41,201 nucleotides of DNA from an uncultured Bacilli bacterium (lineage in GTDB: Bacteria; Bacillota_I; Bacilli_A; RFN20; CAG-631). A program made the position numbers and the translations under genes. This document shows, piece after piece, positions 9,243 through 17,900 of the stretch; the stretch's first letter is position 1; every line of letters starts with the position of its first letter. The notes beneath the pieces were generated by a model, which saw only the letters and a program-made list of their open reading frames with translations, did not search any database and was not told the DNA's origin. The stretch lies in contig CAKPXW010000002.1 of the NCBI GenBank assembly GCA_934202505.1, forward strand, positions 1-41,201. The letters are read 5' to 3'.

Positions 9243-9659
9243 CTATTTATTTTTATATAATGTTATTTCTTCTTTATTTTCAAATAAATGTTTAAATCTA
9301 GTAACATCTATATAACAATTCTCTTTTACCATAAATGTCTTTAAAACATCAAATAATGTTTTATTACTTATATTAGCAAGGCATGCTAAATAATAGATAT
9401 TCTCACCGGCGTTAACTAATATCACTGTTTCATTGCAAATTGATATTATAAAGCCAAAATCTTTATTTTCCATTTCTAGACTATCAATAAGTATAGAATT
9501 TTCGAAATTATTAGCATTAATGACATACCTTTTTACTTTACTTTCAATAATTGGTTTTGTTTTATCAAGTTCTCCTTCAAATAAAAATGAATTATTTAAT
9601 GTTTCGTCGTATTTTACAAAATAAGGAGTCCTTATATATCTAAATTGTACATTTTCCAT
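9243..9659 (-). CDS. Hypothetical protein
   Basis: 138-aa ORF with GGAG-containing upstream sequence; no motif recognised. Confidence 0.5.
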   Translation of the reverse strand: MENVQFRYIRTPYFVKYDETLNNSFLFEGELDKTKPIIESKVKRYVINANNFENSILIDSLEMENKDFGFIISICNETVILVNAGENIYYLACLANISNKTLFDVLKTFMVKENCYIDVTRFKHLFENKEEITLYKNK

Positions 9660-9731
9660 AGTGTATTTCTCCTTTAAATTAATAGTAAATCATTGTATGT
9701 TATTTTTCAATAGCTAAAATTTCAAAAAAAC

Positions 9732-9760
9732 TTGAAATAATTCCATAAAAATGATAATAT
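9732..9760 (+). promoter_or_regulatory. Sigma-70 type promoter for tRNA-Trp
   Basis: TTGAAA (9732..9737), 17-nt spacer, TAATAT (9755..9760), 15 nt upstream of the tRNA 5' end. Confidence 0.6.
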
Positions 9761-9775
9761 ATCTCTTGCAAATAT

Positions 9776-9849
9776 AGGGGCATAGTTAAATGGCTTAACA
9801 ACGGTCTCCAAAACCGTCAATCTGGGTTCGATTCCTAGTGCCCCTGCCA
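9776..9849 (+). tRNA. trnW: tRNA-Trp (anticodon CCA), CCA-3' encoded
   Basis: Folded by hand: acceptor AGGGGCA/TGCCCCT, anticodon stem ACGGT/ACCGT with loop CTCCAAA, T-arm CTGGG-TTCGATT-CCTAG, discriminator G, then CCA. Confidence 0.9.
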
Positions 9850-9922
9850 TTAAGAATGCATTAGTTTGATACAGTAAAAATGTATTAAACTTTTTTTATT
9901 TTTACGGGAGTTTGATTCTTAC
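9848..9922 (+). repeat. Left copy of a ~75-bp imperfect direct repeat (candidate attL), abutting the tRNA 3' end
   Basis: CATTAAGAATGCATTAGTTTGATACAGTAAAA... recurs at 13608..13681. The first 33 nt have one mismatch; overall about five-sixths identity by hand alignment. Confidence 0.85.
9863..9898 (+). terminator. Rho-independent terminator of tRNA-Trp (inside the left repeat)
   Basis: AGTTTGATACA / TGTATTAAACT forms an 11-bp stem (one G-T pair) with a 7-nt loop, followed by TTTTTTT. Confidence 0.7.
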
Positions 9923-10000
9923 CGTATGTTCGAACATTCGAACTTTGATACATATAATTTTCATTTTAAATTGTGAATTTTTGAAATTCTATATGCTTAC

Positions 10001-10080
10001 TATTGAACGATTATTTTAACAAATGAACGATTACTGAAACTATTGAACGTTTACTCCAACAATTAAACGATATAAATAGA
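10001..10080 (+). repeat. Four iteron-like direct repeats with exact 20-bp phasing
   Basis: TTGAACGATTA (10003), ATGAACGATTA (10023), TTGAACGTTTA (10043), TTAAACGATAT (10063). Confidence 0.85.
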
Positions 10081-10126
10081 AAATTCTTTATAAGTAAAAA
10101 AAATATGTAATTTTGCAGTTTTATCA

Positions 10127-10154
10127 TTGATTTATTACCAATTTTCGATATAAT
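10127..10154 (+). promoter_or_regulatory. Putative promoter of the AlbA_2-like gene
   Basis: TTGATT (10127..10132), 16-nt spacer, TATAAT (10149..10154). Confidence 0.5.
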
Positions 10155-10182
10155 AAACTTGGTAATAAAAGTTGGTGATAAA

Positions 10183-11580
10183 ATGAAAATTAAAGAAATA
10201 ATTAATGAACTATTGCAATTTTCTAAAGAAAGAGAGTGGTTTGAGTTTAAAGAAAATTGGTTTCAACCTGTCGCTCTTGGAGAATATGTTTCTGCTCTTT
10301 CTAATGCGGCCGCTCTTTTAGGAAAGGACTATGGATATTTTGTATGGGGGATAAATGATGAAACTCATGAAATAGTGGGAACTGATTTTGATTATTACCA
10401 AGACTATAGACATGAGCCATATCAAAACTATCTAAATAGAAATCTCTCTCCACGAATCAAATTTGAGTTTGGTGAAGATGTTATTAATGGAAAAAGAGTT
10501 GTTATTTTAGCCATTGAAGCAGCAAAAGAAATCCCAACTTCATTTAATAAAGTTAGATATATTCGAATTGGGTCATCAAAAGATTCAATGGAAAATAATC
10601 CTAAAAAGGAAAAAGAACTTTTTAAAATACTTGAAAATGGTTATCCAACAATAGTTAATACTGAATCACTATATCAAGATTTAACATTTGAAAAATTGTT
10701 CATGTATTATGGAAGCAAAGGAATAAGTATCAAGCAAGAAACATTTAAAAAAAATCTTCATTTATTAACTCCTGATGGAAAATACAATATAATGGCGCAA
10801 CTTCTTTCTGATAACTCCCAACTACCATTAAGGTTATCAATATTTGAAGGAGAAACAAAAGGATCAAATCTTTATGCTATTAAAGAATTCGGATTTGATT
10901 GCCTTTTATATTCGCTAAAAAATCTTTTAGATTATGGAGATGTTATCAACATAATTCAATCTGATGAAACAAATAGAAAAGAAGAAAGAAAAGAAACGCC
11001 GTTGTTTGACATAAAATCATTCAATGAAGCTATAGTTAATGCGGTTCTTCACAATAAATGGGTTGATGGAAATGAGCCTATGATAACAGTATACTCTAAT
11101 AGAATTGAAATTCTTTCTAGAGGCACAATAGCTCCATCTCAAACATTAGAAGGTTTTTATTTAGGAGAATCAGTGCCTGTAAATGAAAAATTATCAGAAA
11201 TCTTTGCTCAATTAAGAATAAGTGATAAATCTGGAAGAGGAGTTCCAAAAATTGTTGAAAACTATTCTAGAAATGCTTTTGAATTTAGAGACAATTCAAT
11301 AGTAGTTACTATTCCATTTAATTATAATAGAAAAGTTGGTGATAAGGTTGGTAATAAAATTGGTAATAATCCTACAACTAGAAAGCATGGATTAAACTTA
11401 ACAAGGGAAAGAATCATGTCAGAAATGAGACATAATCCAAATATTACTAAAGTCGAACTTGTTATATTATTAGGTATAAGTAATACTGCAGTTGATAATA
11501 ACATAAGATATCTAAGAGAAAATGGCTACATAATTAGAGTTGGCGAAAATAAAAATGGTTACTGGAAAGTTTTAAAATAA
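10183..11580 (+). CDS. AlbA_2/Schlafen-like domain + HATPase_c_4-like + C-terminal winged-HTH protein (often annotated as RecG-like putative transcriptional regulator)
   Basis: EREWFEFKENW near the N-terminus is typical of AlbA_2. The central NAVLHNKW...GRGVPKI resembles the divergent ATPase-like module. The C-terminal ITKVELVILLGISNTAVDNNIRYLRENGYI is a wHTH. ATG at 10183 is preferred over the TTG at 10159. Confidence 0.7.
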   Translation: MKIKEIINELLQFSKEREWFEFKENWFQPVALGEYVSALSNAAALLGKDYGYFVWGINDETHEIVGTDFDYYQDYRHEPYQNYLNRNLSPRIKFEFGEDVINGKRVVILAIEAAKEIPTSFNKVRYIRIGSSKDSMENNPKKEKELFKILENGYPTIVNTESLYQDLTFEKLFMYYGSKGISIKQETFKKNLHLLTPDGKYNIMAQLLSDNSQLPLRLSIFEGETKGSNLYAIKEFGFDCLLYSLKNLLDYGDVINIIQSDETNRKEERKETPLFDIKSFNEAIVNAVLHNKWVDGNEPMITVYSNRIEILSRGTIAPSQTLEGFYLGESVPVNEKLSEIFAQLRISDKSGRGVPKIVENYSRNAFEFRDNSIVVTIPFNYNRKVGDKVGNKIGNNPTTRKHGLNLTRERIMSEMRHNPNITKVELVILLGISNTAVDNNIRYLRENGYIIRVGENKNGYWKVLK

Positions 11581-11660
11581 CAAAAATAATTATGAAATTG
11601 TTTGATTTTTTGATGTTGCTGAAAAATATGTAATTGTGTAAGAAAAGGAAATAAATAAAA

Positions 11661-12011
11661 ATGAAAAAGATAAATGCAGTAGATTATTTAGGAAAAGAAG
11701 TAACTTTAAAAATTGATAGACCATTAGGTTCAAGACATCCACAATATGGTTTTATCTATATGTTAAATTATGGATATGTACCTAATACTATTAGTGGAGA
11801 TGGTGAAGAATTAGATGCATACTTAATTGGAGAATTTGAACCAGTTACATCTAGTAGTGGCAAAGTTATTGCAATTATACATAGGACTAATGATGACGAT
11901 GATAAACTTATTGTTTCTAAAAATGGGAATGATTATTCGGATGATGCAATTAGAGCATTAACTGAATTTCAAGAAAGATTCTTTGATTCAATAATTATAA
12001 GAAATAAATAA
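11661..12011 (+). CDS. Small inorganic pyrophosphatase-like protein
   Basis: 116 aa. GDGEELDAYLIGE and IHRTNDDDDKLIV resemble the acidic metal-binding core of family I pyrophosphatase, but much shorter. Confidence 0.5.
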   Translation: MKKINAVDYLGKEVTLKIDRPLGSRHPQYGFIYMLNYGYVPNTISGDGEELDAYLIGEFEPVTSSSGKVIAIIHRTNDDDDKLIVSKNGNDYSDDAIRALTEFQERFFDSIIIRNK

Positions 12012-12037
12012 TTTATTAATAGAAGAAAGGTAATTTT

Positions 12038-12673
12038 ATGAGTTTTGATTTTAAAAAAGAATATAAAGAATTTTATATACCTAAAAACAAGCCAAGTATT
12101 GTTGAAATACCAAGAATGAATTATATAGCTGTTAGGGGAATAGGAAATCCAAATGAAGAAAATGGTGATTATCAAAACACTATTGGTTTATTATATGGAG
12201 TAGCATATACAATAAAAATGAGTTATAAGGGAACTCATAAAATAGAAGGCTTTTTTGATTATGTTGTACCACCACTTGAAGGCTTTTGGTGGCAGGATGG
12301 TTTAACTGGAAGCATTGATTATGATAATAAAGAAGCAATGCATTTTATATCAATTATTAGATTGCCTGATTTTGTGACTAAAGAAGATTTTGAATGGGCC
12401 ATTGAAGAAGCCACAAAGAAAAAGAAACAAGATTTTTCAAGAGTTGAATTTTTAACTTATGATGAAGGCTTATGTGTTCAATGTATGCATATAGGTTCCT
12501 ATAATGACGAACCTGCAACCGTTAATACAATGCATGAATATATGAAAGAAAATGGTTATGAACTAGATATAACTGATAAAAGATATCATCATGAAATCTA
12601 TTTAAGTGATCCAAGAAAATGTGATAATAATAAATTAAAAACTGTCATTAGACACCCAATAAAGAAAAATTAA
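12038..12673 (+). CDS. GyrI-like small-molecule-binding domain protein
   Basis: FDFKKEYKEFYIPKNKPSIVEIPRMNYIAVRGIGNPNEENGDY... and CVQCMHIGSYNDEP are characteristic of the GyrI-like (PF06445) family. Confidence 0.8.
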   Translation: MSFDFKKEYKEFYIPKNKPSIVEIPRMNYIAVRGIGNPNEENGDYQNTIGLLYGVAYTIKMSYKGTHKIEGFFDYVVPPLEGFWWQDGLTGSIDYDNKEAMHFISIIRLPDFVTKEDFEWAIEEATKKKKQDFSRVEFLTYDEGLCVQCMHIGSYNDEPATVNTMHEYMKENGYELDITDKRYHHEIYLSDPRKCDNNKLKTVIRHPIKKN

Positions 12674-12841
12674 TAGGGATAGTACCAATCACTTTTAAGA
12701 ATCTAATAGTTAAAAAGAGCTAATCATTTCATTCAGTCTTATTTTAAATATCATGATTTGCTGTTGTATCCATTATGTACCACTAAGCGTGGATATCAAT
12801 TGAAATTATTTGATGTTAATATAGTTTTAGGAGGTGCTACT

Positions 12842-13453
12842 ATGGATATAATTAAGATTGGAAATTTTATCCGTGAATGCAGGAAAAATAAAAATTTAAC
12901 ACAAAAGCAGTTAGCGGATAAATTATTTATTGAGCCTAAAACTATTTCAAAATGGGAAACGGGAAATGGTTTGCCAGATGTTTCGATAATGAAAAATTTA
13001 TGTAATGAATTAGATATATCTTTAAGTGAACTATTTATAGGGGAATATGGTAAAGATGAATCTTATGAATTAATAACAGAACAAATACTCTTAAAAGAAT
13101 TTGAAAAAGAACGAATACGAAATAAAAAAAATTTAATTGGTGAAATTTTAATAGGATGTGCTTTTATTGCTGTTGTAATCACATTAATATTATTTGTAGG
13201 ATTTGTACCTATTGCAACATATTTGAAAATAATACTAGTTGCATTAGCATTAATCTTTATTGTTGTAGGAATAACAGGATTAATATTATTAGATGCTAAT
13301 ATTGGATATTTTGAATGTGCAGAATGTCATGAAAGATTTGTACCTTCAGTTAAAGATTATACTTTTGGATTACATACATTTAAAAAAAGAAAGTTAACTT
13401 GTCCTAAATGTGGTAAAAAGACTTGGTGCTCTAAAAGAATTAATAAAATATAG
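12842..13453 (+). CDS. Membrane-tethered XRE-family HTH protein with a C-terminal zinc ribbon
   Basis: GGAGG RBS before the ATG at 12842. HTH_3 (LTQKQLADKLFIEPKTISKWETG), two predicted TM helices, then CAECHERF...CPKCGKK. Confidence 0.75.
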   Translation: MDIIKIGNFIRECRKNKNLTQKQLADKLFIEPKTISKWETGNGLPDVSIMKNLCNELDISLSELFIGEYGKDESYELITEQILLKEFEKERIRNKKNLIGEILIGCAFIAVVITLILFVGFVPIATYLKIILVALALIFIVVGITGLILLDANIGYFECAECHERFVPSVKDYTFGLHTFKKRKLTCPKCGKKTWCSKRINKI

Positions 13454-13528
13454 AAGTTAATAAATAAATGTCATTTTAAAAGCTTCCAACAAGAAATATT
13501 AAGTTGATTATAAAATAGGAATGTTATT

Positions 13529-13585
13529 GCGTTACGCAAAATAGAGGCAGGGTTACGCAAATTGATAGAAACGTTACGCATTTTG
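13529..13585 (+). repeat. Three direct repeats with exact 21-bp phasing
   Basis: GTTACGCAAA (13531), GTTACGCAAA (13552), GTTACGCATT (13573), ending about 25 nt before the right direct repeat. Confidence 0.85.
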
Positions 13586-13607
13586 TATCAAATGTTGTGT
13601 TTCTAGA

Positions 13608-13681
13608 CATTAATAATGCATTAGTTTGATACAGTAAAATGTGTCGAACTTTTTTTGCTTTTACGTGGGTTAATTCTTATC
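13608..13681 (+). repeat. Right copy of the ~75-bp imperfect direct repeat (candidate attR), also a terminator-like hairpin
   Basis: CATTAATAATGCATTAGTTTGATACAGTAAAATGTGTCGAACTTTTTTTG... The hairpin AGTTTGATACA / TGTGTCGAACT is kept through G-C and G-T pairs and is followed by a T-run. Confidence 0.85.
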
Positions 13682-13806
13682 ATTTGTTTTACCTTATGAG
13701 CAATAATGCTACACTTATAAAATGATTTATTTTGCCAAATATTTCGCCATTGTATTGATTTATTTCGTCAAAATTCATATAATTAATATAGTAAAAGGTG
13801 AAATAA

Positions 13807-14304
13807 ATGAATGTAAAAATTGTTTGCTCATTCCTTATTTTGTTAGTTGTTTCATTAACAGGATGTACCACGATTTCTAGCAGTGAAAACACTAGTATTG
13901 ATAGTGGAAGTATTAGTGTTGATAGTGGGAGTATTAGTTTTTCGGTAGAAGGTAGTTCTTCAGGCGAATCTGGGAAAACTGATGGTGAACTTATTTTTGT
14001 ATCCGAAGAAGAACAATTGAAAAACAGTGACTTGGTTTATCAAGTTGTAGTGACTAAAAGAGGAGGAGTTGAATTCATTGATAATCAACTCTATACGGTT
14101 TATTATTTCGAAATTTTAGAAATTATTAAAGGTGAAGAAACAATAAATTATGCTTATTTTAGAGGAGACACAACAGAAAACAGCAGTGTGACAAGTTCTA
14201 CTGATGAAAAATTGATAGAAAATGAAAATTATAAATTATATTTACAAAACAGAAACGGCAAGTATATAACAACAGCAGGATATCAAAGTATTATAAAACA
14301 ATAA
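13807..14304 (+). CDS. Hypothetical lipoprotein
   Basis: Signal peptide with lipobox LTGC and a Ser-rich linker (SIDSGSISVDSGSIS). RBS AAAGGTG. Confidence 0.65.
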   Translation: MNVKIVCSFLILLVVSLTGCTTISSSENTSIDSGSISVDSGSISFSVEGSSSGESGKTDGELIFVSEEEQLKNSDLVYQVVVTKRGGVEFIDNQLYTVYYFEILEIIKGEETINYAYFRGDTTENSSVTSSTDEKLIENENYKLYLQNRNGKYITTAGYQSIIKQ

Positions 14305-14341
14305 GGAACTTTTGGTAGATTAAACCTTATAAAATATTTAT

Positions 14342-14373
14342 GCTCACACTTCAAACGTGTGGGCTTTTTATTT
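14342..14373 (+). terminator. Rho-independent terminator after the lipoprotein gene
   Basis: GCTCACAC / GTGTGGGC 8-bp stem with a 7-nt loop, followed by TTTTTATTT. Confidence 0.65.
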
Positions 14374-14901
14374 CTACTTTTACACATGCCTGGTGGTTAT
14401 GCTGCCATCCAGGACCTTTTTGATTATTGATTCGACATAGCTACTGTTCAAATTGTTCATAAGATTTTCTTTCAGTGAGAACAATATGTACCATAAGCAA
14501 TTAGGTGAAAACAAATAACGGTATAATCACACAATAGATGTGACAAAGTTGACTTTTTGAGCAATTTATGGGAAACTTAGAGCAAGATAATTTGTTATAC
14601 AAATTATGAAGTTGCTAACTCCAAATAGCCTATAAAAAATGCAAAAACATAGGCAAAAGGAGTGGACAAGGCAGGAAAAATGTTGGACATTCATTAATAA
14701 TCAAACAAGATGTAAGTCTACCATTTGAGTGAATATAATAAAACTTTACCGCACTACTGCATAGAAAATAGCCTATGAGCGGTGCTATTTCGATTTTATA
14801 AGGAATAAAAACACAACATTAAAGCAGTTTAGGTTTTAGCTAAGAAAAAACCTATCTTTCAAATCTTACAAACGAAAAAAGTTAGAAAGAGGTGAAATAT
14901 A

Positions 14902-17900
14902 ATGAAAAAATATTTTAAAAAAACAAGTATTGCTATAATAATTGTTATGATGTTCATTTTCGCTATTTTTGGTGGCGAGACAATTACAATTCATACAAAC
15001 GCCGATAATACAAAATATAAAACAGTCGTGAACGCTCAAGGTGTCAAGACAGAAAAAGGGACAAAAGCGACAACGCAAGTAGAATTAGGAAATTATATCA
15101 GCCTTGGTAAGTACAACGGCAAGGATGTAATATGGAGGTGCGTCAGTATTGATGAGAAAGGGTTACTTATGCTTGCCGATAACATAATCGACACACTCCC
15201 TTACGACGCTAAGACCAACGACAACAACCGTTCTAAGTCACACAGCCGCAACAATAATCGTGATAACCGCGGCTCTAACTATTGGAAAGACAGCAATATG
15301 CGTTCTTGGCTCAATTCTACGGCAGTATCAGGCGAAGTGAAGTGGCTATGTGGTAATCCGCCAAGGGCCGGTTATGTAAATGAAAATGCGTATGACCAAA
15401 AAGCCGGTTTTTTGAACGACTTTTCCAAAGCCGAGATTGCCGCAATGAAGAACGTGACCCAGCGCTCTTTGGTATCACACCCTGAGTACAATCATGGATT
15501 TCATGATGGTGATGGTCGCTCTGATTTGGAATTTAATGAGAACATTGAGAACGTTGCCAGTAATTTCAACAGTGCATATGGCGAAAACTCGACCGAAAAG
15601 GTTTTTCTGCTAGACGTCCAACAAGTCAATAGAGTGTGGAAAAATTTCGATAATTATTATATAGGCAGAAAAGAAGGATTTGCTTGGCCTTATTGGCTAA
15701 GGACACCTCTTTCTAGTTGCAACCACCTAATGCGCTATGTGGGCAGCAATGGATTTGTTGGAAAAGATTACCCAACAAATGCTATTGGAGTAAGACCTGC
15801 GTTTTATCTAGATTCAGACTATTATGTAACAACCTCCGGCAATGGCAGTGCAAGCAATCCTTATGTTGGCTCTGCACCTGATAAAATCGAGGACGACTAT
15901 ACCATAGCCGAGTCGGAAGAAGACCCAAATCAAGAATGGGACGTAAGCCTTGACCAACAACTTAAACTTACCCTTGGTCCATACTATTCTAGCGATGGCA
16001 AATATGCCACACCGACTATTCCTATCTATACTATCCAAAAGACAAGAAGTGACACCGAAAATATGGTAATTCTTATTTGTGGCGAGGGTTACACCAAGAG
16101 TCAGCAACAAAAGTTTATCAATGATGCAAAAAAAGTATGGGAAGGAGCAATTCAGTACGAACCATATCGTAGTTATGCCGACCGCTTCAACGTATATGCA
16201 CTTTGTACGGCGTCAGAGTCGAGTTTTAACAATGGTGATAGTACATTTTTTGATGTTGTTATAGATAAAAAGGTTGGGCCGATGATTTCAGTAAATAAAA
16301 GTAGTTGGAAAAACCATATTTTCGAACGCTGTATAGGACCTGCATTCATTGAACAAATTCACGACGCTCATATTCCTAATAAAACTGATCCTGATACATT
16401 TATTTGGGACGATGATAAAATGTACCCGCCATTTTATTATGTGCACAACTATATTAATCAATTTGCTTTGCTAGTCAATACGTCTCAAGATTTTGGTGGT
16501 TCACATAGAAATTATAAACGTGGTATCCATTATTTTATAACCCCAGCCGATAACAATCGTGCGCAAAAGTCTTTTGCACATGAGCTTGGTCACGGGTTGC
16601 TAGAACTTGGCGATGAATATATGACTTCAGCCGCAGAATCAATTGACTATACTTCGCTAAATGTGGCATATAATCACAATCCGGAACAAGTAAAGTGGAA
16701 AAAATTACTAGGGTTTAGAAAAACTTTTACATGCAATACACATCCTTCTTATACTGCTTACAATTCCAGTTGGGAATGCCTTATGCGTGATACCAACTAT
16801 CAGTTCTGTGAAGTATGCAAGTTGCAAGGGTACAAGAGAATGTCGCAACTCATAGATGGCAAAAGCCTCTATGTCGCCGACCCAGAAGTTAAGAAATATA
16901 TAGACAGGTATACTAACCCATCGGACTTTGTGGAAACAAATTACAATGGATATATTAATTTTATAAATTATCGTGAGGGAGTTTTGCTTAGCGGCTGGAA
17001 CAAAAACAAATTCAACACGGGTATGGTAGGTGAGAAAATTCAACTTCGCACCATCGTGCAAAATCTTTCAGACACTACGGAACGCCAAGTTACTATGAAA
17101 TTGTGGATAAAGCATGCCGATGGAAGCGTTGCAACTACAACTAGCGGTCAAATGCTAGAAGCAACACAAACTTTTACTATTCCTGTATGGAGCGAAAAGA
17201 GTAAGTTTTGGCAAAAGGGAGCTTTGGAATATAATGGTAGTGATTTGAATTCTGGATTGGAGAATTGTGAGTTGATTTACCAAATTCCACTAGACGCAGT
17301 GCTAAATAACGGCGACACCGTTGCCTTTGAAGTAACTGACGAAAACGGAAATGTGCTTGCTCACGACAATACCGAAACCCAACCATATGCAAACATTAAT
17401 ATTGAATATAAATTTGAGGACGGAAGTCCAATGCCTAATGCAACTAAAGCCGTAATACCTCTTGCAGTGGGAAGCTATGTTAATTGGACGACTGCTCCAT
17501 CACTTTATGGACATGTACTTAGCAAAGTTGATGGCCTAAATCAAATTGTAAGCGGGAGCGGCCAAACGGTGACGTACTATTATGCCAAAAAAATAGACAC
17601 CCATATTCACGATTGGAGTGATTGGGTAAGCAATGGTAACGGAACGCATACCCGCACTTGTACGAAAGATAGTAGTCATACCGAAACAGCAAATTGTTCG
17701 GGCGGAATGGCCACTTGCACAACAAAAGCGGTTTGTGACGTTTGCAAAACAATGTATGGCGAAACTGCATCTCATAACACAACGCAATATGGCGGAAAAG
17801 ACGGCACGGGACACTGGAATACTTGTTCGACTTGCGATAACAAATTCAACTTTGAAGCACATACTCCTGACAGAGAAAAAGCTGATGAAACCACCCCTGT

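What the first reader, a model, noticed from the sequence alone, without database searches (positions are those of the whole stretch)
10183..13453. Cargo resembles a conflict/stress module: Schlafen-like ATPase-wHTH, mini-pyrophosphatase, GyrI-like binder and a membrane-tethered XRE/zinc-ribbon protein
Seen: four co-oriented genes. (1) AlbA_2 (EREWFEFKENW) + ATPase-like + wHTH. (2) A 116-aa protein retaining only the acidic core of family I pyrophosphatase. (3) A GyrI-like ligand-binding protein. (4) XRE HTH + 2 TM + CxxC...CxxC ribbon. Established: AlbA_2/Schlafen-type domains and membrane-tethered XRE regulators are recurrent in mobile elements and defence islands, and GyrI-like domains bind small molecules. 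Inference: this may be a sensor-effector set, with nucleic-acid targeting controlled by a small molecule or nucleotide that the mini-PPase could hydrolyse. It could equally be four unrelated cargo genes. I do not recognise it as any named defence system.
Basis: inference. Interest (0 to 1): 0.55.

Follow-up and report, generated by a model that had tools for sequence, protein, structure and literature searches.

The report
Four unrelated cargo genes beside tRNA-Trp
The four genes are real, but they do not form one defence system: they are separately inherited accessory genes (a Schlafen-type immune nuclease, a miniature pyrophosphatase, a toxin-hydrolase-like GyrI protein and a membrane-bound regulator) sitting in a small repeat-flanked insert next to a tRNA gene of a gut bacterium.

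Summary
Observation confirmed.

Interpretation mostly not supported. In about 200 loci centred on homologues of each of the four proteins, the set recurs only in three close relatives. Even there it is decaying or mosaic.
- Gene 1 is a single-gene prokaryotic Schlafen (pSlfn) of the published Slfn-GHKL ATPase-HTH class. Its 63-83% homologues sit alone in ICE-like and phage contexts, never with genes 2-4.
- Gene 2 is a compact family-I pyrophosphatase fold (pLDDT 92). It belongs to a family of more than 7,000 members found in many gut Bacilli, often beside or fused to NUDIX.
- Gene 3 is not merely a ligand binder. It aligns over its full length with Lin2189 (E 4e-62), a characterised cyclopropanoid hydrolase, and keeps both catalytic Glu. 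Homologues 81-90% identical occur across phyla in unrelated contexts.
- Gene 4 (XRE HTH, two membrane helices, four-Cys ribbon) is a pseudogene or a stub in the relatives.

Identity profiles place a recombination breakpoint in the gene 1/gene 2 spacer.

New context: the block (9848-13688) starts at the 3' end of tRNA-Trp. It is bracketed by an ~80-nt direct repeat carrying the terminator hairpin. No recombinase is present in the 41-kb window.

An ordinary accessory islet; low to moderate interest.

The parts
9776..9849 (+). tRNA-Trp(CCA); the accessory segment begins at its last two bases
   Evidence: ARAGORN; Rfam RF00005, 61.4 bits. Similarity to related loci starts at the tRNA, with nothing shared upstream.
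9848..9930 (+). Left copy of the ~80-nt direct repeat: tRNA trailer plus an 11-bp-stem hairpin at about 9863-9891, followed by a T-run
   Evidence: Repeat families D2, D3 and D20. An exact 25-mer occurs twice in the window against 0 expected. blastn gives 83 nt at 83% identity. RNA fold -13.8 kcal/mol, z -4.1.
9928..10073 (+). Conserved 'left end': GTTCGAAC/ATTCGAAC palindromes (9928-9943), then three to four TTGAACGAT-type repeats spaced 20 nt apart (9999-10073)
   Evidence: Repeat family D1 and pattern search. The same module stands at the left end of the blocks in L012, L040 and L097.
10127..10154 (+). Sigma-70-like promoter match (TTGATT-16-TATAAT) in front of gene 1
   Evidence: Consensus scan, 10 of 12 matches. 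The region 10121-10198 is conserved upstream of gene 1 homologues in L098, L099 and L040. Consensus match only; not shown to be active.
10183..11580 (+). Gene 1: prokaryotic Schlafen (Slfn nuclease - GHKL-type HATPase_c_4 - winged HTH), 465 aa
   Evidence: Pfam. The E16-x4-E/D21-F-K motif is invariant in 66 distinct homologues. PHROG 12156, E 9e-51. The PADLOC hit to PDC-S50 covers the N-terminal domain only. The architecture class is described in PMC13056530.
11581..11660 (.). Spacer that contains the recombination breakpoint between module A (gene 1) and module B (genes 2-4)
   Evidence: 100-nt identity profiles. Against L040, identity is 96% up to 11575 and 82-90% after. Against L012, it is about 60-65% up to 11575 and 92-98% after.
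11661..12011 (+). Gene 2: miniature family-I-type pyrophosphatase, 116 aa
   Evidence: Pfam and NCBIfam. AF2 model with pLDDT 92. The listed Foldseek PDB matches (50) are all family I PPases, TMq 0.5-0.7. Acidic and aromatic core invariant in 33 sequences. 7,499 homologues.
12038..12673 (+). Gene 3: Lin2189-like GyrI-family protein (probable cyclopropanoid cyclopropyl hydrolase type), 211 aa
   Evidence: Pfam. PDB 3B49 and 5X5M, E 4e-62 over the full length. Catalytic E157/E185 of Lin2189 align with E158/E186.
12842..13453 (+). Gene 4: XRE HTH - two membrane helices - CxxC...CxxC ribbon, 203 aa
   Evidence: Pfam, hydropathy and Cys positions, conservation.
13531..13582 (+). Conserved 'right end': three GTTACGCA repeats spaced 21-22 nt apart
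   Evidence: 3 matches against 0.18 expected. Also present at the right end of the blocks in L097 and L012.
13608..13688 (+). Right copy of the direct repeat, with the terminator hairpin at 13623-13650. Similarity to all related loci stops at 13688-13691.

Best explanation
The region is a 3.8-kb accessory islet (9848-13688) placed immediately downstream of tRNA-Trp in a low-GC gut Bacilli genome. It is bounded by a duplicated ~80-nt tRNA-trailer/terminator sequence. It is a mosaic of at least two modules with separate histories, and its genes act independently.

Module A is a promoter plus one self-contained immune gene, a prokaryotic Schlafen. Inferred mechanism: the N-terminal Slfn domain (E16, E21) is a metal-dependent RNase, most likely a tRNase. 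It is held in check by, and activated through, its own GHKL ATPase and wHTH domains when a phage cue appears.

Module B holds three genes.
- A compact pyrophosphatase typical of this bacterial lineage. Inferred: it hydrolyses PPi or a nucleotide pyrophosphate bond, working alongside NUDIX/Ham1-type house-cleaning enzymes.
- A Lin2189-like GyrI-family hydrolase. Inferred: it detoxifies cyclopropane-type DNA-alkylating natural products.
- A membrane-anchored XRE/zinc-ribbon regulator. Inferred: a local transcription factor, dispensable.

Shown here: domain content, fold, conserved residues, repeat boundaries, mosaicism and lack of conserved co-occurrence.
Inferred: every biochemical activity, and how the islet arrived (probably site-specific recombination in trans, or recombination between terminator repeats).
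For: Lack of conserved co-occurrence
- The co-occurrence table over about 200 loci shows only close-relative repeats of the set.
- 85 loci centred on gene 1 (63-83% identity): none has a PPase or GyrI-like gene, and none of the 39 scanned has a tRNA.
- Their neighbours are ArdC-like and helicase/methylase-like ICE genes, an OLD-like ATPase plus a UvrD-like helicase, or phage tail and tape-measure genes, in DNA of 32-53% GC.
- 80 species-level PPase loci: gene 1 is adjacent in one (L040); L012, found separately through a 91%-identical PPase, is the other. Recurrent neighbours elsewhere are NUDIX (10 loci), Ham1, radical SAM and a UvrD-like helicase.
- The PPase domain is fused to NUDIX, GNAT, glyoxalase or kinase domains in other proteins.
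- GyrI-like homologues of 81-90% identity are named from Saccharibacteria, Bacillota and Bacteroidota. They lie in unrelated contexts and on 14 IMG/VR contigs.
- XRE-TM homologues sit beside ODP-NUDIX or acyltransferase genes.

Mosaicism and decay
- Mosaic identity profiles with a breakpoint at 11581-11660.
- Gene 1 is reduced to an 81-aa remnant in L097. Gene 4 has two stops and a frameshift in L097 and is a 17-codon stub in L012. Genes 3 and 4 are absent in L040.

Boundaries
- Direct repeats and hairpins.
- The same arrangement occurs next to tRNA-Gln (L012), tRNA-Trp (L040) and tRNA-Leu (L097).
- Shared similarity runs only from the tRNA to 13688.

Family assignments; PMC13056530; PMC5684135.
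Against: - The four genes could be one transcription unit. No + strand terminator was found between the promoter-like site at 10127 and the hairpin at 13623.
- Gene 1 and the PPase are adjacent in three combinations with discordant divergence: protein identities 100/100, 97/77 and 49/91%. A functional link could also produce this.
- A GyrI-like gene and an XRE-TM-ribbon gene (36% identical) co-occur once more in an unrelated 49%-GC mobile element, L199.
- No empty tRNA-Trp site and no recombinase were found, so insertion is inferred from repeats and varying contexts only.
- The two HisKinase-class pSlfns tested in E. coli gave no protection against the phage panel used (PMC13056530). Defence by this architecture class is therefore unproven.
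- The neighbour samples are capped at 80 loci per scan and biased towards close relatives.
Confidence: 0.7

Rival explanations
1. First reader's model. The four genes form one sensor-effector conflict system: the Schlafen-like protein attacks nucleic acid under control of a small molecule or nucleotide, which the GyrI-like protein senses and the mini-PPase degrades, with the membrane XRE protein as regulator.
For: Co-orientation, short spacers, and a single terminator after gene 4. Remnants of the same four-gene order in L097 and L012.
Against: There is no co-occurrence outside three close relatives, seen from any of the four sides. Components are lost piecemeal. There is a recombination breakpoint between gene 1 and gene 2. 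No multi-gene PADLOC system matches. Gene 3 carries the catalytic residues of an enzyme. pSlfns are described as single-gene systems (PMC13056530).
Confidence: 0.05
2. Two-gene partnership. The mini-PPase is a functional partner of the Schlafen protein, for example by removing PPi or a nucleotide made or used by its GHKL ATPase, or by acting as an antidote. On this view the slot upstream of the PPase is kept filled with varying pSlfn alleles.
For: pSlfn-PPase adjacency occurs in three allele combinations: the window, L040 (97/77% identity; the cassette there holds only these two genes) and L012 (49/91%).
Against: 0 of 85 pSlfn homologues at 63-83% identity have a PPase within 10 kb. About 83 of 86 PPase loci lack a pSlfn. 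L097 keeps the PPase after losing the pSlfn. The three cases share the same conserved left end, so common descent followed by allele replacement explains them.
Confidence: 0.1
3. Module B is a small stress or detoxification operon. The membrane XRE/zinc-ribbon regulator controls the adjacent GyrI-family hydrolase (and the PPase) in response to an envelope or small-molecule signal, and gene 1 is merely a neighbour.
For: Genes 2-4 are inherited as one block at 92-98% nucleotide identity in L012 and L097. The PPase-GyrI spacer is 26 nt. A GyrI-like gene and an XRE-TM-ribbon gene co-occur independently in L199, separated by a GNAT gene.
Against: The regulator is a pseudogene in L097 and a stub in L012, while PPase and GyrI stay intact. 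GyrI-like homologues in seven other fetched contexts lack such a regulator. XRE-TM homologues at 76-89% identity sit next to other genes. The 168-nt gap places gene 4 downstream of its supposed targets.
Confidence: 0.15
4. The flanking repeats are copies of a dispersed intergenic terminator repeat (REP/MITE-like) and say nothing about insertion. On this view the four genes are simply native neighbours in a variable region.
For: The repeat is a terminator-like hairpin whose stem covaries between copies. No recombinase is present in the window. L097 holds four such hairpins in 7 kb.
Against: There are only two copies in 41 kb, and they bracket exactly the segment shared with other genomes. The same bracketing occurs in 4 of 4 related loci, next to three different tRNA genes. 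The repeat extends beyond the hairpin into the tRNA trailer. No copies occur in about 1.2 Mb of PPase loci from 80 other species, apart from two weak regex matches.
Confidence: 0.15

Closest known systems
Prokaryotic Schlafen (pSlfn) single-gene phage-defence proteins, 'HisKinase-HTH' architecture class (Nat Microbiol 2026, PMC13056530)
   Same: A full-length PF04326 Slfn domain at the N-terminus with an E-x4-E/D acidic pair, followed by a GHKL/HisKinase-clan domain and an HTH. This class makes up 19.2% of the 5,930 pSlfns catalogued. The gene stands alone and is carried on mobile DNA.
   Different: Defence was demonstrated for the DUF262 and Ig-like fusions, not for HisKinase fusions. The window shows no specific match to a known defence system within 10 kb, whereas 69.6% of pSlfns have a defence-gene neighbour. 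No activity data exist for this protein.
[quoted passage not shown]
   Same: Same length and a full-length alignment (E 4e-62). Both catalytic glutamates are kept (E157/E185 align with E158/E186). Six of seven substrate-contacting aromatic positions named in the paper are kept: Y45, Y53, Y57, W84, Y155 and Y188.
   Different: W99 of the aromatic cage is Met here. The host is an uncultured gut bacterium with no known yatakemycin or CC-1065 producer nearby. The substrate is unknown.
Family I soluble inorganic pyrophosphatase (for example E. coli Ppa, about 175 aa)
   Same: The beta-barrel fold and the Y/NYGY...D-x-D/E-x-x-D...D-rich-K metal-binding and phosphate-binding core.
   Different: Only 116 aa. 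Pfam profile positions 1-29 and 116-153 have no counterpart, so the equivalents of E20/K29 and Y141/K142 are missing or unclear (E. coli numbering, from my own knowledge of the enzyme). It falls far below the NCBIfam equivalog cut-offs. It also occurs as a domain fused to NUDIX, GNAT, glyoxalase or kinase modules.
tRNA-associated genomic islets and cis-mobilisable elements (CIMEs): att-flanked elements that lack their own recombinase (comparison from my own knowledge, not from a tool)
   Same: Position at the 3' end of a tRNA gene, flanking direct repeats, no integrase inside, tandem arrays (L097), and variable cargo.
   Different: No cognate integrase or parent element was identified. The repeats coincide with a terminator hairpin. 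The same element ends occur beside three different tRNA genes. Excision or an empty site was not demonstrated.

Membership tests
Prokaryotic Schlafen (pSlfn) | Slfn domain (PF04326) longer than 100 aa with a significant HMM match | tested here: met
   Residues 16-136 match profile positions 1-117 of 118; E 2.7e-19, 70.3 bits against a cut-off of 25.3.
Prokaryotic Schlafen (pSlfn) | N-terminal acidic catalytic pair (E15 and D20 in RorSlfn5) | tested here: met
   E16 and E21 have the same five-residue spacing at the start of the domain. They are invariant (E/D at position 21) in 66 distinct homologues of 49-97% identity. Caveat: matched by position and spacing only, not by direct alignment to RorSlfn5.
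Prokaryotic Schlafen (pSlfn) | Fusion to a putative sensor module; here the HisKinase (GHKL) + HTH class | tested here: met
   HATPase_c_4 at 296-364 and HTH_24 at 404-450. The class is listed in PMC13056530.
Prokaryotic Schlafen (pSlfn) | Location near known defence genes (a statistical trait: 69.6% lie within 10 kb) | tested here: not met
   PADLOC scans of the four genes, the two ORFs flanking the block, and ten neighbours gave only generic HTH, RmuC and ArsR-wHTH hits. Some homologues elsewhere lie beside an OLD-like ATPase and a UvrD-like helicase; this rests on reading the sequences, not on an HMM test.
Prokaryotic Schlafen (pSlfn) | Phage-triggered, Mn-dependent tRNA cleavage and a defence phenotype | not testable with these tools
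   Needs cloning, phage challenge and RNA-end mapping.
Family I inorganic pyrophosphatase | PF00719 match above the gathering score, and the PPase fold | tested here: met
   37.9 bits against 23.5. AF2 model pLDDT 92, pTM 0.86. The listed Foldseek PDB matches (50) are all family I PPases, TMq 0.5-0.7.
Family I inorganic pyrophosphatase | Full-length enzyme (about 170 aa) with the complete active-site set; equivalog-level match | tested here: not met
   116 aa, covering only profile positions 30-115 of 153. NCBIfam 34.3 bits against a cut-off of 246, and 25.8 against 200.
Family I inorganic pyrophosphatase | PPi hydrolysis | not testable with these tools
   An enzyme assay is required.
Cyclopropanoid cyclopropyl hydrolase (CCH) subfamily of GyrI-like proteins | Full-length homology to a characterised CCH | tested here: met
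   Lin2189 (3B49): E 4e-62, query 3-208 against chain 9-210.
Cyclopropanoid cyclopropyl hydrolase (CCH) subfamily of GyrI-like proteins | Catalytic acidic pair E157 and E185 (Lin2189 numbering) | tested here: met
   They align with E158 and E186 (the alignment read against PMC5684135; chain index minus 3 gives the native number, checked on Y46, Y54, Y58, W85 and W99).
Cyclopropanoid cyclopropyl hydrolase (CCH) subfamily of GyrI-like proteins | Aromatic cage Y46, W85, W99, F154 and Y187 | tested here: inconclusive
   Y45, W84, Y155 and Y188 are conserved or aromatic, but W99 aligns with M101.
Cyclopropanoid cyclopropyl hydrolase (CCH) subfamily of GyrI-like proteins | Hydrolysis of yatakemycin or CC-1065-type warheads | not testable with these tools
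   An enzyme assay is required.
Known multi-gene anti-phage system (PADLOC-DB 2.0) | Two or more of the four proteins match components of one catalogued system | tested here: not met
   Gene 1 hits only PDC-S50 (N-terminal domain) and, marginally, a CARF3--CARF_TM model. Genes 2 and 3 have no hit. Gene 4 gives only generic HTH hits.
Conserved gene cassette (operon-level system) | Co-occurrence of the families in phylogenetically separate genomes | tested here: not met
   Co-occurrence table over about 200 loci and its components.
tRNA-integrated genomic island / CIME-like element | Flanking direct repeats, one abutting the 3' end of a tRNA gene | tested here: met
   9848-9930 and 13608-13688. 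The same arrangement occurs at tRNA-Gln, tRNA-Trp and tRNA-Leu in L012, L040 and L097.
tRNA-integrated genomic island / CIME-like element | An integrase or recombinase in the element or nearby | tested here: not met
   No recombinase domain in any sizeable non-nested window ORF of 90 aa or more.
tRNA-integrated genomic island / CIME-like element | An empty site or an excision product | tested here: inconclusive
   Exact-protein look-ups of the flanking genes returned only the same strain.

The most novel reading that the evidence does not exclude
The block may represent an undescribed kind of integrase-less mini-cassette. Its features would be:
- direct repeats of 60-135 nt at both ends, here the trailer and terminator hairpin of a tRNA gene;
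- conserved ends carrying phased repeats (four TTGAACGAT-type at 20-nt spacing on the left, three GTTACGCA at 21-22 nt on the right).

Such cassettes would shuttle Schlafen alleles and other conflict genes between tRNA trailers of gut Bacilli, moved in trans by an unidentified recombinase. The recurrent pSlfn-miniPPase pairing could then be functional rather than historical.
Probability: 0.15. Interest if true: 0.55.

Novelty: new member of a known kind. Interest (0 to 1): 0.27.

Why it matters
The result stops a false lead: this is not a new four-gene defence system, so cloning the whole cassette as a unit is not justified.

Three useful points remain.
- A gut-Bacilli example of the most common but experimentally unproven pSlfn class (Slfn-GHKL-HTH). 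Allele swapping between conserved flanks is the pattern expected of an immune gene.
- A very large, uncharacterised family of ~114-aa pyrophosphatase-fold proteins. They are linked to NUDIX enzymes by genomic neighbourhood and by gene fusion.
- A Lin2189-like hydrolase that stays more than 80% identical across phyla of host-associated bacteria. This hints at selection by a widespread cyclopropane-type genotoxin (speculation on my part).

The repeat-bounded, recombinase-less islets next to tRNA genes deserve a genome-wide look.

Tried and rejected
- Empty-site search. Exact-protein look-ups of the two flanking genes (the 138-aa ORF and the 165-aa lipoprotein-like ORF) returned only the same strain.
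- Source element for the repeat. Scans of viral contigs for the hairpin and for the left-end palindrome found nothing.
- PDB sequence search for gene 1: no hit. NCBIfam: no model for genes 1 or 3.
- Rfam at permissive threshold over 9500-14950: only the tRNA, so no riboswitch or leader explains the long spacers.
- Idea that the upstream phased repeats are operators for gene 1's own wHTH. L098 and L099 have similar wHTH recognition regions but different upstream repeats. L012 has a wHTH domain 51% identical to the window's but the same repeats. L097 carries the repeats without the gene. Not supported; left unexplained.
- Idea that the tRNA adjacency relates to Schlafen tRNase activity. Homologues at 63-83% identity have no tRNA nearby, so it is more likely an integration-site effect.
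- Literature search for a described mini-PPase family: nothing relevant.
- Composition: the block (27-28% GC) does not differ from its flanks, so GC gives no evidence for or against foreign origin.
- Structure prediction of gene 1 was not attempted.

Full report
**What is there.** The window is low-GC DNA (about 27%). The same sequence lies on a 39-kb metagenome contig. The closest named relatives of its genes are uncultured gut Bacilli, including Coprobacillus sp. CAG:826. Between 10183 and 13453 there are four intact, co-oriented ORFs.
- SLFN_AlbA_2 + HATPase_c_4 + HTH_24 (465 aa);
- a 116-aa protein matching only positions 30-115 of the 153-position pyrophosphatase profile;
- a 211-aa GyrI-like protein;
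- a 203-aa XRE HTH protein. It has a hydrophobic stretch at residues 95-157 that fits two membrane helices, and four invariant cysteines.

**Surroundings.** tRNA-Trp(CCA) ends at 9849. Starting at its last two bases, about 80 nt (9848-9930) are repeated at 13608-13688. An exact 25-mer within the repeat occurs twice in the window against none expected. Each copy folds into an 11-bp hairpin followed by a U-run (z about -4).

Just inside the left repeat lie two TTCGAAC palindromes and three to four TTGAACGAT-type repeats at 20-nt spacing. Just inside the right repeat lie three GTTACGCA repeats at 21-22-nt spacing, against 0.18 expected. No recombinase domain occurs in any sizeable non-nested ORF of the 41-kb window. 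Rfam finds only the tRNA.

**Do the four genes travel together?** I tested this from all four sides.

PPase side:
- 7,499 homologues, nearly all about 114 aa.
- In 80 species-level genome loci, a gene 1 homologue is adjacent only in L040; none carries gene 3 or a full-length gene 4. L012 and L097, found through closer PPase relatives, add the other partial copies.
- Other contexts are chromosomal and varied. The recurrent neighbours are NUDIX, Ham1, a radical-SAM enzyme and a UvrD-like helicase. One is a housekeeping row, ValRS...PPase-NUDIX-Ham1-rpsL-rpsG-fusA-tuf.

Gene 1 side:
- 85 loci with 63-83% identical proteins contain no PPase and no GyrI-like gene. The 39 scanned for tRNAs have none.
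- Their neighbours are ICE-type genes (ArdC-like, and a helicase/methylase C-terminus), an OLD-like ATPase with a UvrD-like helicase, or phage tail and tape-measure genes. These sit in DNA of 32-53% GC.

Gene 3 side: proteins 81-90% identical are named from Saccharibacteria, Bacillota and Bacteroidota. They lie in unrelated contexts and occur on 14 IMG/VR contigs.

Gene 4 side: the 76% homologues sit next to ODP-NUDIX-Na/H exchanger genes, with variable genes upstream. An 89% homologue sits beside acyltransferase genes.

**The few related copies are mosaic and decaying.**
- L040 (Coprobacillus sp. CAG:826) reads tRNA-Trp | repeat | gene 1 (97% protein identity) | PPase (77%) | repeat | rpoC. 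It has no genes 3 or 4.
- L012 reads tRNA-Gln | repeat | gene 1 (49%) | PPase (91%) | GyrI (94%) | a 17-codon stub of gene 4 | a RhuM/Fic gene | repeat.
- L097 reads tRNA-Leu | a variant hairpin | an 81-aa remnant of gene 1 | PPase | GyrI | gene 4 with two stops and a frameshift | repeat | AraC + DUF4886 | repeat ....

Identity profiles in 100-nt steps place a sharp breakpoint in the 11581-11660 spacer:
- Against L040, only 10076-11575 (promoter plus gene 1) is about 96% identical.
- Against L012, gene 1 is about 60-65% identical, but 11576-12875 is 92-98%.
- Against L097, 11676-13575 is 89-99%.

Gene 1 and genes 2-4 are therefore separately inherited modules. Similarity to all these loci starts at the tRNA and ends at 13688.

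**What each gene most likely is.**

Gene 1 fits the prokaryotic Schlafen family described in Nat Microbiol 2026 (PMC13056530). That paper reports the following:
- Slfn fused to a HisKinase-clan domain plus HTH makes up 19.2% of 5,930 pSlfns.
- pSlfns are treated as single-gene sensor-effector proteins.
- RorSlfn5 is a Mn-dependent tRNase with catalytic E15 and D20.
- The two systems that gave defence were the DUF262 and Ig-like fusions. The HisKinase fusions tested gave no protection in that panel.

Here the E16-x4-E/D21-F-K motif is invariant in 66 homologues. My inference is a self-contained, phage-triggered RNase.

Gene 2 gives a confident model (pLDDT 92). The listed PDB structural matches (50) are all family I pyrophosphatases. 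The Y/NYGY, D-x-E-x-x-D and D-rich-K core is invariant. The N-terminal and C-terminal parts of the classical enzyme are missing. The same domain is fused to NUDIX (three of ten proteins sampled), GNAT, glyoxalase and kinase domains elsewhere. My inference is a pyrophosphate-bond hydrolase acting with house-cleaning enzymes.

Gene 3 aligns over its full length with Lin2189 (E 4e-62). Lin2189 is a characterised cyclopropanoid cyclopropyl hydrolase whose E157 and E185 are essential (PMC5684135). Both glutamates and most of the aromatic cage are conserved here; W99 is Met. It is therefore better read as a detoxifying enzyme than as a sensor.

Gene 4 is a membrane-anchored XRE regulator with a cytoplasmic zinc ribbon, and it is dispensable in the relatives.

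**Verdict on the interpretation.** 'Cargo' is right. Gene 1 is a genuine conflict gene, and gene 3 is plausibly a resistance gene. No catalogued multi-gene defence system matches. There is no specific match to a known defence system within 10 kb.

What keeps the rival models alive is limited:
- possible co-transcription;
- the thrice-seen pSlfn-PPase adjacency with discordant divergence;
- one independent GyrI-GNAT-XRE-TM-ribbon arrangement beside two large serine recombinases (L199).

**What remains unexplained.**
- How the islet moves is unknown. No empty site was found, no recombinase, and no viral or plasmid-like source of the repeat.
- The hairpin stem covaries between copies (TTTGATACA / TTCAATACA / TTTGACACA). 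That fits a terminator as well as a recombination site.
- A related gene 1 (83% identical) in L098 stands alone between 135-nt direct repeats of a different sequence. This hints that repeat-bounded single-gene cassettes are a habit of this gene family.
- The phased repeats at the element ends do not track the wHTH of gene 1.

**Scores.** The finding is an ordinary accessory islet with one member of a recently described immune family. Interest is 0.27. Novelty: new member of a known kind.

Noticed in passing
window 9848-9930 and 13608-13688: An ~80-nt direct repeat (tRNA trailer plus an 11-bp terminator hairpin) brackets the four genes. There are only two copies in the 41-kb window. The same arrangement occurs at tRNA-Gln, tRNA-Trp and tRNA-Leu in related loci.
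   Followed up: yes
window 9999-10073 and 13531-13582: Phased short repeats sit just inside the two ends: three to four TTGAACGAT-type at 20-nt spacing, and three GTTACGCA at 21-22-nt spacing. They are conserved in L012, L040 and L097 even where gene 1 is missing. Their binding protein is unknown.
   Followed up: partly
window 14902-18948: A 1,348-aa gene (DUF6273 + Peptidase_M64 + InlB-type repeat, Cys-rich, with a C-terminal hydrophobic stretch) has 37-43% GC against a background of about 27%. It looks like a separate foreign acquisition just downstream of the islet.
   Followed up: no
window 11661-12011; proteins P0001-P0270: The mini-pyrophosphatase belongs to a very large family: 7,499 hits, mostly 114 aa. 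The domain also occurs fused to NUDIX, GNAT, glyoxalase, P-loop kinase, radical SAM and aminotransferase modules. I found no literature on it.
   Followed up: partly
window 12038-12673; P0271-P0390: The Lin2189-like GyrI protein is 81-90% identical in records named Saccharibacteria, Nanosynbacter, Peptococcaceae, Acetatifactor, Butyrivibrio, Muribaculum and Acholeplasmatales. That is unusual cross-phylum conservation and suggests recent horizontal spread.
   Followed up: partly
L098 80-214 and 1962-2096: A gene 1 homologue (83% identical) stands alone between two 135-nt direct repeats (88% identical to each other). Their sequence is unrelated to the window's repeat.
   Followed up: partly
L097 9403-16800: A nested or tandem array lies next to tRNA-Leu. 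Two copies of a variant hairpin (about 9403 and 16750) enclose two copies of the window-type hairpin (11991, 16100). These separate the decayed block from an AraC/DUF4886 pair.
   Followed up: partly
L199 337-5831: In a 49%-GC IMG/VR contig the order is GyrI-like (76%), GNAT, XRE-TM-zinc-ribbon (36% identity, same architecture), then two large serine recombinases. This is an independent co-occurrence of the gene 3 and gene 4 families on a mobile element.
   Followed up: partly
L136 333-5300 and L012 7393-8352: RhuM/Fic genes recur downstream of gene 1 homologues. L136 reads AlbA_2 - RhuM/Fic - GNAT - hydrolase - XRE-TM. This looks like a shared pool of cargo genes rather than a fixed system.
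   Followed up: no
L178-L182 (IMG/VR) and L104-L175: Gene 1 homologues (64-66% identical) are inserted between phage tail genes and the tape-measure gene. In ICE-like contexts they sit beside an OLD-like ATPase plus a UvrD-like helicase (a Gabija-like pair, judged by reading the sequences only).
   Followed up: partly
L071 2472-2810 and 10001-10348; L085 9514-9843 and 10001-10336: Two mini-pyrophosphatase paralogues occur in the same locus. In L085 they are adjacent and divergently oriented.
   Followed up: no
L190-L193: The 76% homologues of gene 4 mark the constant edge (ODP-NUDIX-Na/H exchanger) of a variable hot spot. The upstream content differs between strains: ASCH/Abi_2, AAA+/RNase III, a DNA methylase, or radical SAM.
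   Followed up: no
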